Source: the human T2T-CHM13v2.0 reference genome, Homo sapiens. Taken from it: 64,000 nt of DNA. Position 1 is the first letter of the stretch. Each line of letters opens with the position of its first letter. Shown here piece by piece: positions 9,066 to 53,863 of the stretch. The notes under the pieces are model-generated. The model worked only from the letters and a program-made list of their open reading frames with translations. It searched no databases and was not told where the DNA came from. The translations under genes were made by a program, and so were the position numbers. The stretch lies in assembly GCF_009914755.1 (NCBI RefSeq), contig NC_060941.1; one strand, given 5' to 3'.

Positions 9066-9389
9066 GATTATCCAAACCTAATATTTAATTCCAGCGGGCT
9101 TTCCCTTTATTAAGAAGTACACTATTAGACCAGTGCTTTACATCAACAATAGAAACAAACTCAAGTGGCACACTCATTTTACCTTTTATCATAGGGCCAA
9201 ATATAATTAAGAAAATAAGTACCTTAGCACAAAACATTTTTAAGAGGAAAAGTCAGAAGCCTAATTTAAGTGATAATTTACTATTCTAGAGCTTTTGTGC
9301 CATACTACTCCTCTTAATTATCACACACACACACGAATGGGAATTTTGCGACAAAGAGCAGATGAGATTATCTCATGGTTGTACTGTAC

Positions 9390-9464
9390 CTTCCGAAAAT
9401 CTCGCTTCTCAAAATCTGTTTCTGCTATTTTCTCATATTCCATGACTGCATTAGCATTCTTGAA
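9390..9464 (-). CDS. DNAJC7: DNAJC7 exon 5 ([25 protein letters not shown])
   Basis: 75 nt, cag|TTC acceptor, AAG|GTACAG donor. Confidence 0.95.
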
Positions 9465-9608
9465 CTGCACCAGAAAATCAGACATAGGAAAGTTTTAATG
9501 AAGCTGTAGATTAAACAACCACAAAAAAATTAACAAGGCCTTGATGAATTTGAATTCAGTAAATATACCACACTGCCTCTTTTGATAGAGATAGGGTCGA
9601 ATGCATAC

Positions 9609-9722
9609 CTCCTGTTGTGAATGGCCATTTTTATGATCCAGTTCTAGGGCTCTCTGGCAACTGCGACAGGCTGCCATGGCATTCCCTAGAGAGAGGTGGT
9701 ACTCGACCTCTCATAGAAGTCC
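9609..9722 (-). pseudogene. Degenerate duplicate of DNAJC7 exon 4 ([37 protein letters not shown]) with intact AG/GT
   Basis: 100/114 nt identical to 10831-10944 by hand alignment, no indels, CGA>TGA at codon 4; homology continues 48 nt into the downstream intron. Confidence 0.92.
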
Positions 9723-9962
9723 CTAGGAGATTTTCTTTCAAGAAAATCAGAACCACAGACATTTCACAAATCAAATTGATGAAGATACAGTCAAGACTTC
9801 TTAACAGAAGGGCTAGACCCAATCTTCACCCTCAGTTTGAACTTCAAGTCAGGAACACAAGTGTTATGCTTGATATACATGAAATAAAGGCAATGCATTG
9901 CCAGGGATTGAGCATATGTTTTGAGATTCTCACTGAAATGCATCTAGGGTAAACTGTATATA

Positions 9963-10260
9963 CAGTCATACACTCTGGTCAACAATGAACTGTATATATG
10001 GCAGTGCTCCTGTAAAATTGTAATACCGTATTTTTACTGTACCTTTTCTGTTTAGATACACAAATACCACTGTGTTATAGCTGCCTACAATATTCAGGAC
10101 AGTAACACGCTATACAGGTTTTAGTCCAGAAGCCACTGCCATATAGCCTAGGTGTGTAGCAGGCTATGCCACCCAGGTTTGTGTAAGTATACTTTATGAT
10201 TCTGCACAATGACAAAATCACCTAACAAAATGTATGCCTGTCATTAAGCGACACATACTA
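9963..10260. mobile_element. Tigger3a/MER7-like Tc1-mariner MITE between exon 4 and its duplicate
   Basis: TA-flanked CAGTCAT... end; CCATATAGCCTAGGTGTGTAGCAGGCTAT core. Confidence 0.7.
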
Positions 10261-10830
10261 TATATGGAGATGGAACTAAAACATGTTTTAGCTGCTACCA
10301 ATTTAATCAAGGCTTGAATTTACTCAAATTCTTTTTTATTTTTTTGAGACAGGTTCTTGCTCTGTTGCCCGGGCTATAGTGCAGTGGTGCGATCACGGCT
10401 CAGCCTCAACCTCCTGAGCACAAGCAATCCTCCCACCTGAGCCTCCTGAGTGGCTGGGAGCACAGGTAGGTGCATGGCACCAGGCCTGGCTAATGTAAAA
10501 AATTTTTTTGTGGAGACAGGGTCTCACTAAGTCCCAAACTCTTAAATTCTTTAACCTCACTCAAATCAGTCCCTGGAAGCATTTGCCTATTCCCCAGCTA
10601 TCTCAGAAACACTTCAATTTTCACAGATTTTTAAAAGCTGTCAATCATATTCAAAACTCATTTTACAGATTAGGAAGCTGAGGCTTAGAGAGGCTATGAA
10701 ACTCGCCTAAAGTCACCCAGGTGTGCTGATGGCAGAAGTGAGACTAGACCTCAGTTCCGACTTTCAAGTAGCCACTCCTCCCAAATATACCATACTGCCT
10801 CTTTTGACAGAAACAGGATCAGACCCGTAC

Positions 10831-10944
10831 CTCTTGTTGTGCCTGAGCATTTTTATGATCCAGTTCTAGGGCTCTCTGGAAGCTGCGACATGCTGCCATG
10901 GCATTCCCCAGAGAGAGGTGGCACTTGCCCTCTCGTAGATGTCC
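10831..10944 (-). CDS. DNAJC7: DNAJC7 exon 4 ([38 protein letters not shown])
   Basis: 114 nt, phase 0/0, strong polypyrimidine tract, GAG|GTACGG donor. Confidence 0.95.
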
Positions 10945-11116
10945 CTAAAAGAACACCAAGAGGGAAGAAAAGAAGCATGATTGGCCAAGTGGAAAGAAAT
11001 CAACAGCAGCAACAGACACCCACACAAAACCAACACAGAGGCCAGGCGCGGTGACTCACACCTGTAATCCCAGCACTTTGGGAAGCTGAGGCGGGCAGAT
11101 CACTCACTTGGGGTCA

Positions 11117-11350
<234 letters not shown>

Positions 11351-11356
11351 CTACAG

Positions 11357-11572
11357 CAGTAGTTCTCAACCTGGGCAATGTGCCCTCCAGGGGACATTTA
11401 GCAATGTTAAGAGACATTTTTGGTTGTTACAACTGGGCAGAGGGGGTGCTACTCATACTCAGTGATTAAAAGTCAGAGATGCTGCTAAACAACCCACAGT
11501 GCACAGTAAAGTCCCCCACAACAAAGAATAATCTGGTCCCAAATGTCAGTAGTGTCAAGGTTGAGAAATACG
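11357..11572 (+). mobile_element. MER20 hAT-Charlie element
   Basis: CAGTAGTTCTCAACC...GGGACATTT...GGTTGAGAAA consensus features. Confidence 0.85.
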
Positions 11573-11634
11573 GGGCTAGAGAAACTCAACTGTAGCAACC
11601 CAGCCTTCCCCAAACAGCCCCATTACATACATAC

Positions 11635-11759
11635 CCGGACAAAACTGTCATCCAACCTCACTGACTGTTGTGCATCTCCAAGAGCTTCCCGGAACCTTCC
11701 AAGCATCATCAAGGTGGCTGCTCGATTACCATAATAGCTAGCATTTTTAGGACACATAT
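11635..11759 (-). CDS. DNAJC7: DNAJC7 exon 3 ([41 protein letters not shown])
   Basis: 125 nt, AG/GT flanked, matches ORF 11623..11889. Confidence 0.95.
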
Positions 11760-12343
11760 CTATAGGAAAGGCAGAAGAACGTAAAACAAAGTTTAGAACA
11801 GGTCCCTGCTTTGAAAACTTAGAGGGGGCTGGGCGCAGTGGCTCATGCCCATAATCCCAGTACTTTGGGAGGCCAAGAGGGGAGACCACTTGAGGTCAGG
11901 AGTTCAAGACCAGCCTAGTCAACATGGCACAACCCCATCTCTACTAAAATACAAAAAAAAAAAAAAAATAGCTGGGCGTGGTGGTGGGCCCCTGTAATTC
12001 CAGCTACTCAGGAGGCTGAAGCATAAGAATTGCTTGAATCTGGGAAGTGGAGGTTGCAGTGACCCAAGAGCACATCACTGCACTCCAGCCTGGGCGACAG
12101 AGGAAGACCCTGTCTCAAAAAACAAACAAACAAATAAACAAAAACTTAGAGGGCATCTCCCTCCAAACAATGTTAAGGGAATCTATCTGTAACGCTCATA
12201 AACTCTTTTTTCTTCATGGATACAGGGTCTCACTCTGTTGCACAGGCTACAGTGCTGTGGTGCTATCTCGGCTCACTGTAACCTCTGCCTCCTGGGTTCA
12301 AGTGATTCTTGTGCCTTAGCCTCCCAAGCAGCCAAGCAGCTAG

Positions 12344-38424: not shown

Positions 38425-39193
38425 AGAGCTGCCGTTCCTCTTTCACGATCCCAGCCCCATTTCAGTGTCTGGGGCTCTGGTAGATGTGTTGAGGGCAAAG
38501 TAGAGGACAAGCTGTCTTTCCCAGTCAGCCAGGGAGCTCCCCGCCAGGCCACGCCCCAGCCACTTTGCTCCCTCTCACCTCTGGGAAGTGCAAATACTCT
38601 TGGTTGACATCCCCTTCCTCAGCCCTCCCAGCCTACTCCCCATCCCAGCTTTTAGAGGATCTGCTCCACTGTCTCCTGGGGCAGTTGTGGGTCACTGTCC
38701 CTTCCAGCTGCCCCAGACAGGAAGCAGAGTCACCACGCAGCAGTGTCCCTTCTTGGGTCTGAGTTCCTATTATAGGTAGGGGCCCCACCCTCTGGGCTTC
38801 CCATCAGCGACACACACACACTTATGGCACCAGCCTGGACTCCAGAAAAAGGGTGTCCAGGTATTGTGTGTATGCATTTAGTTGTGCACACACAAATATG
38901 CTCCTATACTGGCATTAGGCGTCTCCTCATCCCTCACCCTGACCTTTCTCCTGTCCTTTTCTTGGCTGGAAGAAGTTGGCCTCCTGGGAGTGTAGTTTTC
39001 TGTTTTAAATCCCCCACCCCTGGCTGGGCTCAGTGGCTCACCCCTGTAATCCCAGCACTTTGGGAGGCCAAGGCGGGTCGATTACTTGAGGTCAGGAGTT
39101 CACGACCAGCCTGGCCAACATTGTGAAACCCCATCTCTGCCAAAAATACAAAAGTTAGCCGGGCGTAGTGGCACATGCCTGTAATCCCAGCTA

Positions 39194-39331
<138 letters not shown>

Positions 39332-40151: not shown

Positions 40152-41424
40152 ACCACAATTGTTATCAAAAAGTTTCCCTCCCCTCCCCCTTTTTCTGGTT
40201 CTCCCATTGGAAATGTCTTTAAAAAACAAAAAAAAGATACAGGGGGATACTGGCAGGGTCCCATATTGTGGGGTGGGGAGGGGGCAGTGCTGCAGTGGAA
40301 AGGAGTTTGTGACATTGACATTGACAGCATGAAAATGGGTCTTGCCAGTGCATGTGAGACTGCCTCCCAACACTCAGCTTCACAGTGGCAGGGGCTGGTT
40401 GGGAGAAGGGAAAGCTGAATTTAGTGCTAGGACCAGTTTGGAGTGGGAAGCTGTAGGGGAAAGCTCTTCCTTTGGGAGCTCTGCGGGGGGTTCGGTGTTA
40501 GCTGAGTCCATAGTCTGAGGGAGACCCACACCCGCCCTCCAAGAGTTGGGGTTCAGGAAGTCAGAGAAAGGCTAAGAAGAAGAGCTTCTGAGGGATGAGT
40601 TACTCCCTCAATATTAAGACTGGGCTTATCAGCAAGTATCACTTGAACCAGGGAGGCAGAGGCTGCATGCAGTGAGCCAAGATTGCACCACTGCACTCTA
40701 ACCTGGGCAACAGAATGATACTCTCAAACAGAAAAAAAGACTGGGCCCATGAATGCCCAGAAGACAAGATTAAAACAAAACCCTGGGCCCAACCAGAACA
40801 TCACCTCCTCTCTTAGTCCCACCCCTTCAGAGCAGATGAAGCCCCCAAAAGCTTTCAGAACCAGCCCCACTACCTCCTTGGCTCTGCCCCACCTTAGCAC
40901 TGCTGATCGAAGGACTTTTGGGTCCCCCTTTCTCCTCCATGGTCCTCTGTCACACTCCCATGGTCACCTTGTCCTGACAGCCTTGAGCCTGCTGCAGCTA
41001 GAGACCCCATCCCTATCTCCAGTGAAGCCCCAAAGCCTAGGAATAGAGGTCAGAGAGTCGTCCCCTGGCTAGGAGAGGATGGCTTGTAGAAGCTAAGATT
41101 CCTAGAGTCTGGCCATGTGGGTCTTGGGTGGAGGAAAGTGAGAGCACCACATGGCTGGGGCTGAGATTTTGCATAGATCTTTGGGGTCTGTCAGGGTGGG
41201 AAATGCAGGCAAGCCTAGGATTAACCCTGGAAGGCCTGCGAAAGGAGGGTGGGGACAGTCCTTGGAAGGCAGCTGCCCTTAAAACTAGCCCAGCTCTTTC
41301 TGGATCGGGCAGGACCCCTGAAGCTGTTCACAGTCCCTGTGGCATGTAGGAAACCAAGGTGTCTCAGGACAGGAGGAGACAAGGAGTGGCTATTGGGAAA
41401 TCAGCTCTGGCCTCCCCATGAGGG

Positions 41425-53410: not shown

Positions 53411-53863
<453 letters not shown>

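What the first reader, a model, noticed from the sequence alone, without database searches (positions are those of the whole stretch)
9561..9751. Hidden tandem duplicate of DNAJC7 exon 4: candidate poison or mutually exclusive exon
Seen: 9609-9722 is a gap-free 114-nt copy of exon 4 (10831-10944) with 14 mismatches, located 144 nt upstream of exon 5. It keeps an AG acceptor (tctcctag), a branch-point-like TTCTGAT about 25 nt upstream, and a GAG|GTATGC donor. Homology runs 48 nt into the downstream intron (9561-9608 vs 10783-10830, 38/48), so this is a DNA-level duplication rather than a retrocopy. Codon 4 is CGA>TGA. The nearby alternative AG (9735-9736) would add AAA ATC TCC TAG, which also ends in a stop. 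Established: an early stop codon triggers NMD, and heterozygous truncating DNAJC7 variants are linked to ALS. Inference: including the copy, with or instead of exon 4, would lower DNAJC7 dosage. It could therefore be a regulatory switch, a site for deep-intronic disease variants, or an antisense-oligonucleotide target. In species that keep CGA it could be a real alternative TPR exon. Caveat: its pyrimidine tract is weaker than exon 4's, and nine codons change amino acid, consistent with neutral decay.
Basis: partly seen in the sequence, partly recalled or inferred. Interest (0 to 1): 0.85.

Follow-up and report, generated by a model that had tools for sequence, protein, structure and literature searches.

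The report
Decayed intronic copy of DNAJC7 exon 4
Intron 4 of the human DNAJC7 gene holds an old, stop-bearing 170-base copy of exon 4 that looks like a neutrally decaying relic, not a working poison or alternative exon, though part of it could still be spliced by accident.

Summary
Window 9609-9722 (- strand) is a gap-free copy of DNAJC7 exon 4 with 14 of 114 mismatches. It has 38 of 48 matches in the downstream intron, a TGA at codon 4, an AG acceptor and a GT donor.

The homology is only 170 nt (9561-9730 vs 10783-10952, E 4e-46). It stops 8 nt upstream of the exon, so exon 4's pyrimidine tract and branch point were not copied.

- The copy's acceptor scores below 506 of 506 real acceptors and below 59% of random intronic AGs in the same gene. 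Its donor is ordinary, at the 36th percentile.
- Polarised with two DNAJC7 retrocopies, the copy's lineage carries 9 non-synonymous and 2 synonymous changes (omega about 1.3). Exon 4's lineage carries 0 and 3.
- None of 8 RefSeq transcripts and neither retrocopy contains it.
- No feature that would enforce mutual exclusion was found.

One new point: an internal AG at 9686-9687 is a good acceptor (23rd percentile). With the donor it defines a 77-nt frameshifting cryptic exon, one of 17 comparable pairs in the gene's introns.

Verdict: a vestigial exon duplicate. Poison-exon function is unsupported but not excluded, because no RNA data or other species' genomes were available.

The parts
9561..9730 (-). 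The whole duplicated segment (170 nt): 8 nt of upstream intron, the 114-nt exon-4-like body and 48 nt of downstream intron
   Evidence: blastn 9561-9730 vs 10783-10952: 84.7% identity, no gaps, E 4e-46, and no further homology on either side. Genome-wide E 6e-46.
10783..10952 (-). Source segment: live DNAJC7 exon 4 (10831-10944) with the flanks that were copied
   Evidence: The RefSeq exon is present in 8 of 8 transcripts. It encodes about one TPR unit (Pfam TPR_1 positions 4-34 of 34, E 0.002, below the curated cut-off).
9609..9722 (-). Exon-4-like body, 114 nt, 14 mismatches to exon 4
   Evidence: Its translation is [37 protein letters not shown].
9711..9713 (-). In-frame TGA at codon 4, where exon 4 has CGA (a transition at a CpG)
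   Evidence: context CTACGAGAG vs CTATGAGAG.
9723..9724 (-).
   Evidence: PWM score -6.62 bits, below 506 of 506 real acceptors (lowest real score -3.85). It has 9 pyrimidines among the 18 bases at -20..-3; only 6 of 506 real sites have 9 or fewer.
9735..9736 (-). Upstream alternative AG, 12 nt before the outer AG
   Evidence: PWM score -2.70 bits, 0.4th percentile. It would add KIS*.
9746..9752 (-). Branch-point-like TTCTGAT, with its A at 9747
   Evidence: Read directly. The fit to the yUnAy motif is recalled knowledge, not a tool score.
9686..9687 (-). Internal AG behind a CT-rich run (CCACCTCTCTCTAG). It is the best acceptor within 400 nt upstream of the donor
   Evidence: PWM score 8.48 bits, 23rd percentile of real acceptors, above exon 4's own 7.76. 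Exon 4 has GG here. Both retrocopies have the A.
9609..9685 (-). Candidate 77-nt cryptic exon (internal AG to the inherited donor). It shifts the frame, and its own frame hits a stop at codon 14
   Evidence: [13 protein letters not shown].... It is one of 17 AG..GT pairs of 50-250 nt, in 28,120 nt of DNAJC7 introns, with both sites at least as good.
9603..9608 (-). Donor intron bases GTATGC, after exonic GAG
   Evidence: PWM score 7.21 bits, 36th percentile of 490 real donors; exon 4's donor scores 8.20 (48th). Only 40 of 1633 intronic GTs score as high.
9561..9608 (-). Copied piece of intron 4, 38 of 48 matches. Nine of the 10 mismatches fall in its first 23 nt
10650..10769 (-). Interspersed repeat on the exon-4 side. 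It starts 13 nt after the end of the duplicated block and has no counterpart next to the copy
   Evidence: 39 dispersed genome matches besides the query's own place (40 matches listed, 40 of 50 candidates scored), nearly all confined to query positions 111-187 and one starting at 91. nhmmer finds other copies aligning from query positions 62-68 to about 176.

Best explanation
This is the relic of a small DNA-level duplication inside DNAJC7. A 170-bp piece was copied about 1 kb downstream into the same intron, in the same orientation. The piece held exon 4, 8 bp of its upstream intron and 48 bp of its downstream intron.

The copy brought its AG, its donor and its exon body. It did not bring exon 4's pyrimidine tract or branch point, so it most likely was never efficiently recognised as an exon.

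Since then it has drifted at about the neutral rate. It picked up a CpG-transition stop at codon 4 and eight other amino-acid changes, and it does no regulated job today. At most it is spliced in as rare noise. That would most plausibly run from the internal AG at 9686-9687 to the inherited donor at 9609, giving a 77-nt frameshifting insert that NMD would remove.

Shown by the calls: the anatomy, the splice-site scores, the pattern of substitutions and the absence from annotation. Inferred: the age (roughly 50-100 million years) and the lack of function.
For: 1. Homology is limited to 170 nt and ends 8 nt upstream of the exon.
2. The outer acceptor scores -6.62 bits. That is below 506 of 506 real acceptors, and 1246 of 2122 random intronic AGs of the same gene score at least as high. 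Its tract has 9 of 18 pyrimidines; 6 of 506 real sites have so few.
3. The 14 exonic differences were polarised with two retrocopies.
   - Three (positions 36, 63, 111), all synonymous, fall on exon 4's lineage.
   - Eleven fall on the copy's lineage: 9 non-synonymous including the stop, and 2 synonymous.
   - This gives omega of 1.31. Omega of 0.2 or less is rejected at p=0.007, and omega of 0.3 at p=0.037. Fisher's test of copy against exon 4 gives p=0.027.
4. The divergences fit one frozen and one free lineage. The exon part has JC distance 0.134, about half the 0.244 of the intron part, where both copies are free.
5. Residues G6 and F22 of the exon-4 peptide align with G and Y of consensus TPR proteins. 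In the copy they are V and C. The Pfam TPR_1 E-value rises from 0.002 to 0.14.
6. No exon at 9609-9722 occurs in any of 8 RefSeq DNAJC7 transcripts, 5 mRNA and 3 non-coding.
7. Both DNAJC7 processed pseudogenes in the genome carry exon 4 joined to its neighbours with no 114-nt insert.
8. No report of a DNAJC7 poison or cryptic exon turned up in three full-text searches. All four papers holding DNAJC7, 'nonsense-mediated decay' and 'exon inclusion' were checked by find. Three mention DNAJC7 in their text or a table only as an ALS gene, and one only in its reference list.
Against: - No RNA-seq, no NMD-inhibition data and no other species' genome could be consulted, so neither inclusion nor cross-species conservation was measured.
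- The donor is as good as many real ones (36th percentile; only 40 of 1633 intronic GTs match it). The internal acceptor at 9686-9687 sits at the 23rd percentile, above exon 4's own. Several constitutive DNAJC7 exons score lower: exon 5 at the 1st and 8th percentiles, exon 7 at the 4th and 17th.
- The body is 88% identical to a constitutive exon and may keep that exon's splicing enhancers. This was not tested.
- Mismatches are uneven. Fourteen of 26 lie in 40 nt around the donor (permutation p=0.007 for that window size, 0.035 and 0.07 for two others). The centre of the exon and the last 25 nt of the copied intron are therefore better kept than average, and drift alone explains that only moderately well.
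- The retrocopies are not true outgroups, so the polarisation is a parsimony argument.
- The PWM is a simple position-independent model trained on 33 genes, most of them from 20 exon-dense stretches of chr17. This may favour C-rich tracts.
- RefSeq rarely lists low-abundance NMD isoforms.
Confidence: 0.75

Rival explanations
1. It is a genuine regulated poison exon. The cell includes the copy, as the 114-nt, 126-nt or 77-nt form, under some conditions to send DNAJC7 mRNA to nonsense-mediated decay and so tune chaperone dosage.
For: All three forms carry an in-frame stop far upstream of the last exon junction. The donor is at the 36th percentile and the internal acceptor at the 23rd. The body derives from a constitutive exon. 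Unannotated poison exons do exist in human introns (PMC11632617, abstract read). DNAJC7 is dosage-sensitive in ALS (PMC11623670, abstract and passages).
Against: The substitution pattern and amount fit neutral drift. The poison exons described in PMC11632617 lie in conserved intronic regions (abstract). The outer acceptor is below all 506 real sites. Sixteen other AG..GT pairs in the same introns are at least as good. No RefSeq model contains it (0 of 8). No paper was found.
Confidence: 0.07
2. It is a latent pseudoexon. It is silent in the reference sequence but needs only a small change near one of its acceptors to become a spliced, NMD-triggering exon. That would make it a place to look for deep-intronic loss-of-function variants in DNAJC7.
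For: A good donor and an exon-derived body are already in place, and only acceptor recognition looks limiting. Deep-intronic single-nucleotide variants are the commonest cause of pathogenic pseudoexons, and 15.7% of catalogued pseudoexons show some splicing in non-mutant cells (PMC8819188, abstract read). Loss of one DNAJC7 copy is linked to ALS (PMC11623670).
Against: No such variant was seen in any paper read. The same could be said of the 16 other comparable pairs in these introns. This is a property that might be used, not a demonstrated function.
Confidence: 0.1
3. It is or was a real alternative or mutually exclusive TPR-coding exon. It would be functional in species that keep CGA, and inactivated only recently in the human line.
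For: It has the same length (114 nt), the same phase (0) and the same strand as exon 4. Exon 4 encodes about one TPR unit, so a second copy could add or swap a repeat. The stop is a single CpG transition.
Against: Eight further amino-acid changes include two TPR signature positions (G6V and F22C). Omega is about 1.3 over the copy's whole history. The native pyrimidine tract was never copied. Nothing enforces exclusion: the spacer is 1,108 nt, the length is divisible by 3, and the two 48-nt intron blocks have different best partners. Shuffled blocks reached the observed energy in 22 of 30 and 2 of 30 trials.
Confidence: 0.05
4. It acts as a splicing decoy. The inherited donor binds U1 snRNP 144 nt upstream of weakly defined exon 5 and influences recognition of exon 5 or retention of intron 4, without itself being spliced.
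For: Exon 5 has the weakest sites of the nine DNAJC7 exons scored: acceptor 2.03 bits (1st percentile) and donor 3.98 bits (8th percentile). The copy's donor is much stronger.
Against: This is purely positional. There are no binding, conservation or expression data, and 40 intronic GTs in the gene score as well.
Confidence: 0.03

Closest known systems
Unannotated tandem exon duplicates found in introns by similarity to a neighbouring exon (Letunic, Copley & Bork 2002, as cited in PMC9013439; Ivanov & Pervouchine 2022, PMC9013439)
   Same: It is an intronic sequence on the same strand, homologous to the adjacent annotated exon, of the same length and frame, with AG and GT kept. Such cases are common: more than 2,000 unannotated candidates in 2002, and 116,320 exon-target pairs in human genes in 2022 (passages read).
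   Different: This one carries a stop, lacks a usable outer acceptor and shows neutral coding decay. It is therefore a dead member of the class, not a candidate new exon. DNAJC7 does not occur in the main text of that paper (0 occurrences). Its online tables could not be seen.
Mutually exclusive exon pairs derived from tandem exon duplication (Hatje et al. 2017, PMC5740500; Martinez-Gomez et al. 2021 and 2022, PMC8373072 and PMC9741552)
   Same: The origin is the same, duplication of one exon, and length and phase are equal.
   Different: Functional pairs keep both reading frames open and are mostly ancient and highly expressed (PMC9741552, start of the abstract in the listing). Here the second copy has a stop and omega of about 1.3. 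Hatje et al. discarded every candidate with an in-frame stop (passages), so their screen could not have listed this one.
SCN8A stop-bearing duplicated exon, named in PMC5740500 as a neonatal-specific MXE with an in-frame stop (Zubovic et al. 2012), and poison exon 20N of SCN1A (PMC11981616, start of the abstract in the listing)
   Same: In each case inclusion of an extra exon brings in a premature stop and lowers the functional product. For SCN8A that exon is a duplicate of its neighbour.
   Different: Those exons are used and developmentally regulated. For the DNAJC7 copy there is no evidence of use, and its splice signals and sequence decay argue against regulation.
Pathogenic pseudoexons (catalogue of more than 400 events; Keegan et al. 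2022, PMC8819188)
   Same: It is an exon-like intronic tract with one good splice site waiting for the other.
   Different: No activating variant is known here. The catalogue itself is in supplementary files that were closed.

Membership tests
Vestigial (dead) duplicated exon | Significant nucleotide homology to a neighbouring exon of the same gene, on the same strand | tested here: met
   100 of 114 identical, gap-free; E 4e-46. It is the only exon of 27 merged exons in the window with a non-repeat copy.
Vestigial (dead) duplicated exon | Homology extends into intron, showing DNA-level duplication and not a retrocopy | tested here: met
   8 nt upstream and 48 nt downstream (38 of 48). By contrast, the two true retrocopies match only spliced mRNA.
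Vestigial (dead) duplicated exon | Disabled coding capacity and neutral substitution pattern | tested here: met
   TGA at codon 4; 9 non-synonymous to 2 synonymous changes on the copy's lineage; omega 1.31. The retrocopies served as polarisers, not as true outgroups.
Vestigial (dead) duplicated exon | Not part of mature transcripts | tested here: inconclusive
   0 of 8 RefSeq transcripts and 0 of 2 retrocopies contain it. RNA-seq was not available.
Poison exon (NMD-coupled cassette) | Inclusion introduces a premature stop upstream of later exon junctions | tested here: met
   Stops occur in the 114-, 126- and 77-nt forms. Nine coding exons follow.
Poison exon (NMD-coupled cassette) | Splice sites competent for recognition | tested here: inconclusive
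   The outer acceptor is below 506 of 506 real sites. The internal acceptor is at the 23rd percentile and the donor at the 36th. The model is a PWM only; MaxEnt and SpliceAI were not available.
Poison exon (NMD-coupled cassette) | Observed inclusion that rises when NMD is blocked | not testable with these tools
   There is no read data. Nothing was found in three literature searches.
Poison exon (NMD-coupled cassette) | Sequence conservation above the intronic background | not testable with these tools
   No other vertebrate genome was available. The paralogue comparison gives about 10-12% change per lineage, as in the copied intron piece, which points to no constraint.
Mutually exclusive exon pair | Both exons keep the reading frame open | tested here: not met
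   Stop at codon 4 of the copy.
Mutually exclusive exon pair | A mechanism enforcing exclusion: very short spacer, frameshift on double inclusion, or competing RNA structures | tested here: not met
   The spacer is 1,108 nt and 114 is divisible by 3. The two intron blocks share no docking partner, and the energies are within reach of shuffles (22 of 30 and 2 of 30).
Mutually exclusive exon pair | Transcripts with one or the other exon | tested here: not met
   8 of 8 RefSeq transcripts use 10831-10944 and none uses the copy. RNA-seq was not available.

The most novel reading that the evidence does not exclude
The inherited donor at 9609 and the internal acceptor at 9686-9687 define a 77-nt cryptic exon. 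On this reading it is included at a low but real level, or conditionally, for example in neurons or under stress. Each inclusion would destroy a DNAJC7 transcript by NMD. The site would then be both a hiding place for deep-intronic ALS variants and a target for a splice-blocking oligonucleotide that could raise DNAJC7 output from the remaining good allele.
Probability: 0.07. Interest if true: 0.6.

Novelty: new member of a known kind. Interest (0 to 1): 0.25.

Why it matters
As it stands, this is one more decayed exon duplicate of a kind counted in the thousands in human introns, so by itself it changes little.

It matters slightly more than average for two reasons. DNAJC7 is dosage-sensitive: heterozygous loss-of-function variants are associated with ALS (PMC11623670). 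The copy also keeps a good donor, an exon-derived body and a decent internal acceptor, so it is a defined stretch of about 200 bp worth including when intronic DNAJC7 variants or aberrant junctions are screened.

It also gives a clean small example of why some exon duplications never become alternative exons. The breakpoint fell 8 nt from the acceptor and left the pyrimidine tract behind.

Tried and rejected
1. Wider duplication. Sensitive blastn of 9300-10200 against 10201-11700 found nothing beyond the 170 nt. The idea of a long tandem unit was dropped.

2. Retrocopy origin. This was rejected because intron sequence is shared.

3. Retrocopies as fossils of an mRNA that included the copy. Both carry exon 4 only, so they give no support. 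With n=2 this is weak evidence.

4. Dating by an interspersed repeat.
   - The stretch after the homology on the exon-4 side is a dispersed repeat.
   - From memory it is a MIR whose head may lie inside the duplicated 48 nt, which would place the duplication after the repeat's insertion.
   - No other copy aligned that far, so this stays unshown and is not used.

5. Competing RNA structures as in known MXE clusters. A duplexfold scan of both 48-nt intron blocks against 9300-11900 found different best partners, with energies that shuffles reach. The controls were mononucleotide shuffles, 30 each; a dinucleotide shuffler written in that script was not used.

6. Target-site duplication or poly(A) at the copy's ends. 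I looked by eye and saw nothing convincing. This was not computed.

7. Cross-species test.
   - No vertebrate genomes are reachable.
   - The word search for proteins needs a query of 0.55-1.75 times the target length. No single exon or stop-free piece is long enough to reach the 494-aa protein (length recalled).

8. Literature.
   - Searches found no DNAJC7 poison, cryptic, pseudo- or duplicated exon in print.
   - Supplementary tables were closed or outside the library, and any of them could list this copy. This applies to Ivanov & Pervouchine's Zenodo tables, Hatje's candidate list, Keegan's catalogue and Margasyuk's exon list.

9. Broader splice-site training set. This was not obtained (see below).

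Full report
**Observation.**
- On the gene's (minus) strand, window 9609-9722 aligns without gaps to DNAJC7 exon 4 (10831-10944), with 14 mismatches in 114 nt.
- The next 48 intron bases (9561-9608 vs 10783-10830) match at 38 of 48.
- The copy begins after tctcctAG and ends GAG|GTATGC, 144 nt before exon 5. It has TTCTGAT with its A 25 nt upstream, and it reads TGA at codon 4 where exon 4 reads CGA.
- The alternative AG at 9736/9735 would add KIS*.
- A sensitive blastn gives one 170-nt gap-free alignment, 9561-9730 vs 10783-10952, at 84.7% identity and E 4e-46, with nothing else on either side.
- In the whole reference genome the query stretch (window 9500-9800) matches four places: itself, exon 4 and two other loci.

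**What the other two loci are.** L003 (chr6) and L004 (chr1) align in one piece to DNAJC7 exons 2-9 joined, at about 88% identity. They are processed pseudogenes. Over this stretch they are closer to exon 4 (89% and 88%) than to the copy (85% and 85%), and they have no 114-nt insert. They serve two purposes. They are two old snapshots of the spliced mRNA, neither of which included the copy. They are also rough polarisers for the differences between exon 4 and the copy.

**Anatomy of the duplication.**
- Only 8 nt of the upstream intron were copied. Exon 4's own tract (cttcttttcttccctcttggtgttcttttag) has no counterpart upstream of the copy, where the sequence reads ttcttgaaagaaaatctcctag.
- The copy sits 1,052 nt downstream of the source segment, inside the same intron. 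The intervening sequence is unrelated.
- On the exon-4 side an interspersed repeat begins 13 nt after the homology ends. I recall it as a MIR, but no tool named it.
- Of the 27 merged exons annotated in the window, exon 4 is the only one with a non-repeat copy. The three other exons with hits owe them to embedded high-copy repeats.

**Splice signals: method.** I built position weight matrices from 490 GT donors and 506 AG acceptors of RefSeq Select transcripts, leaving DNAJC7's own sites out. The sites came from twenty exon-dense 10-kb stretches of chr17 plus this window.

**Splice signals: results.**

| Site | Score (bits) | Percentile among real sites |
|---|---|---|
| Copy donor (9609) | 7.21 | 36th |
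| Exon 4 donor | 8.20 | 48th |
| Copy outer acceptor (9724/9723) | -6.62 | below 506 of 506 (lowest real -3.85) |
| Alternative AG (9736/9735) | -2.70 | 0.4th |
| Internal AG (9687/9686) | 8.48 | 23rd |
| Exon 4 acceptor | 7.76 | 19th |

- Only 40 of 1633 intronic GTs in the gene score as high as the copy's donor.
- 1246 of 2122 intronic AGs of the same gene score at least as high as the outer acceptor.
- The outer acceptor's tract has 9 pyrimidines in 18 bases. Only 6 of 506 real sites have 9 or fewer.

**A stronger internal acceptor.** With the inherited donor it defines a 77-nt exon (9609-9685). That exon shifts the frame, and in its own frame it stops at codon 14. It is one of 17 AG..GT pairs of 50-250 nt, in 28,120 intronic nt of DNAJC7, whose two sites are both at least as good. 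Two of the others use the donor of an annotated alternative exon, and most of the rest lie in masked repeats. The 77-nt exon is thus a credible cryptic exon, but not an exceptional one.

**Caveats on the model.** It treats positions as independent. Its training genes are exon-dense and probably C-rich in their tracts.

**Selection.**
- At 3 of the 14 exonic differences (positions 36, 63 and 111, all synonymous third positions), the copy agrees with both retrocopies against exon 4. These changes are best placed on the live exon's lineage.
- The other 11 are best placed on the copy's lineage: 9 change the amino acid or make the stop, and 2 are silent.
- With 88.3 non-synonymous and 25.7 synonymous sites, omega for the copy's lineage is 1.31. 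Values of 0.2 or less are rejected at p=0.007, and 0.3 at p=0.037. The contrast with exon 4's lineage (0 to 3) gives Fisher p=0.027.
- The Jukes-Cantor distance is 0.134 in the exon part and 0.244 in the copied intron part. That is what one frozen and one free lineage in the exon, and two free lineages in the intron, would give.
- Exon 4 encodes about one TPR unit (Pfam TPR_1 positions 4-34 of 34, E 0.002, below the curated cut-off). It aligns with consensus TPR proteins in the PDB.
- Two residues aligned with consensus G and Y are V and C in the copy. That these are TPR signature positions is recalled knowledge.
- All of this says that the copy has not been kept as coding sequence.

**Age.** About 10-12% change per free lineage is similar to the two retrocopies' roughly 12% distance from the mRNA. 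With recalled mammalian and primate neutral rates of about 1-2.2e-9 per site per year, this suggests roughly 50-100 million years. This is an inference and needs other genomes.

**Mutual exclusion.**
- The spacer between exon 4 and the copy is 1,108 nt, and 114 is divisible by 3. Neither steric hindrance nor a frameshift would prevent double inclusion.
- A duplex scan of the two 48-nt intron blocks against 9300-11900 found different best partners. Shuffled blocks reached the observed energy in 22 of 30 and 2 of 30 trials.
- No RefSeq transcript uses the copy (0 of 8).

**Literature.**
- DNAJC7 loss of function and haploinsufficiency in ALS is stated in PMC11623670 (abstract and passages). The original exome paper is not held.
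- Unannotated exon duplicates in introns are a known and large class: more than 2,000 candidates in 2002 and 116,320 exon-target pairs in human in 2022 (PMC9013439, sections and passages).
- The large human MXE screen removed every candidate with an in-frame stop. It cites SCN8A as a stop-bearing MXE (PMC5740500, passages).
- Conserved cryptic poison exons exist in human introns (PMC11632617, abstract).
- Deep-intronic variants activate latent pseudoexons (PMC8819188, abstract).
- Searches for DNAJC7 with poison, cryptic, pseudo- or duplicated exon terms found nothing on this element. The four papers holding DNAJC7, 'nonsense-mediated decay' and 'exon inclusion' either mention it only as an ALS gene or hold it only in a cited title. 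Supplementary tables were closed and may list it.

**Verdict.**
- This is a real, unannotated, old DNA-level duplicate of exon 4 that lost, or never had, a usable 3' splice region and has decayed neutrally.
- The poison-exon and mutually-exclusive-exon readings are not supported by anything testable here. The mutually-exclusive reading fails two defining features.
- What remains open is whether the inherited donor and the internal acceptor give low-level NMD-bound splicing, or could be activated by a variant. Only RNA data, other genomes and a minigene can settle that.
- Interest is low to moderate. It is a new member of a known kind.

Noticed in passing
L003 (chr6:~140,522,000) and L004 (chr1:~63,236,500): Two processed pseudogenes of DNAJC7, about 88% identical to exons 2-9 joined. 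Neither contains the intronic copy.
   Followed up: partly
window 10909 (exon 4 position 36) vs 9687: The live exon has G where the copy and both retrocopies have A. The A state makes a CT-rich internal AG. The live exon therefore seems to have lost an internal cryptic acceptor by a synonymous change. Orthologues are needed to confirm.
   Followed up: partly
window 9390-9464 (DNAJC7 exon 5): Exon 5 has the weakest splice sites of the nine DNAJC7 exons scored: acceptor 2.03 bits (1st percentile) and donor 3.98 bits (8th percentile). A much stronger unused donor lies 144 nt upstream of it.
   Followed up: no
window ~11001-11038, - strand: A GT-rich tract lies just upstream of exon 4's pyrimidine tract. 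It was also the best duplex partner of the copy's intron block (2 of 30 shuffles as good). Its meaning is unknown.
   Followed up: no
window 10650-10769: A dispersed repeat with 39 matches elsewhere in the genome (40 of 50 candidates scored, so a lower bound) starts 13 nt after the end of the duplicated block. From memory it is a MIR. Whether its head lies inside the duplicated 48 nt was not shown.
   Followed up: partly
window 9586-9625 vs 10808-10847: Mismatches between the two copies cluster around the donor: 14 of 26 in 40 nt, permutation p 0.007 for this window size and 0.035 and 0.07 for others. The exon centre and the last 25 copied intron bases are much better kept. Gene conversion or local constraint cannot be told apart here.
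   Followed up: partly
window ~39019-39323, ~53487-53810, ~40630-40740: High-copy repeats, about 300 nt with dozens of copies in the window, are embedded in the last exon of NKIRAS2 and in an exon of C17orf113. A shorter piece lies in the last exon of ZNF385C.
   Followed up: no
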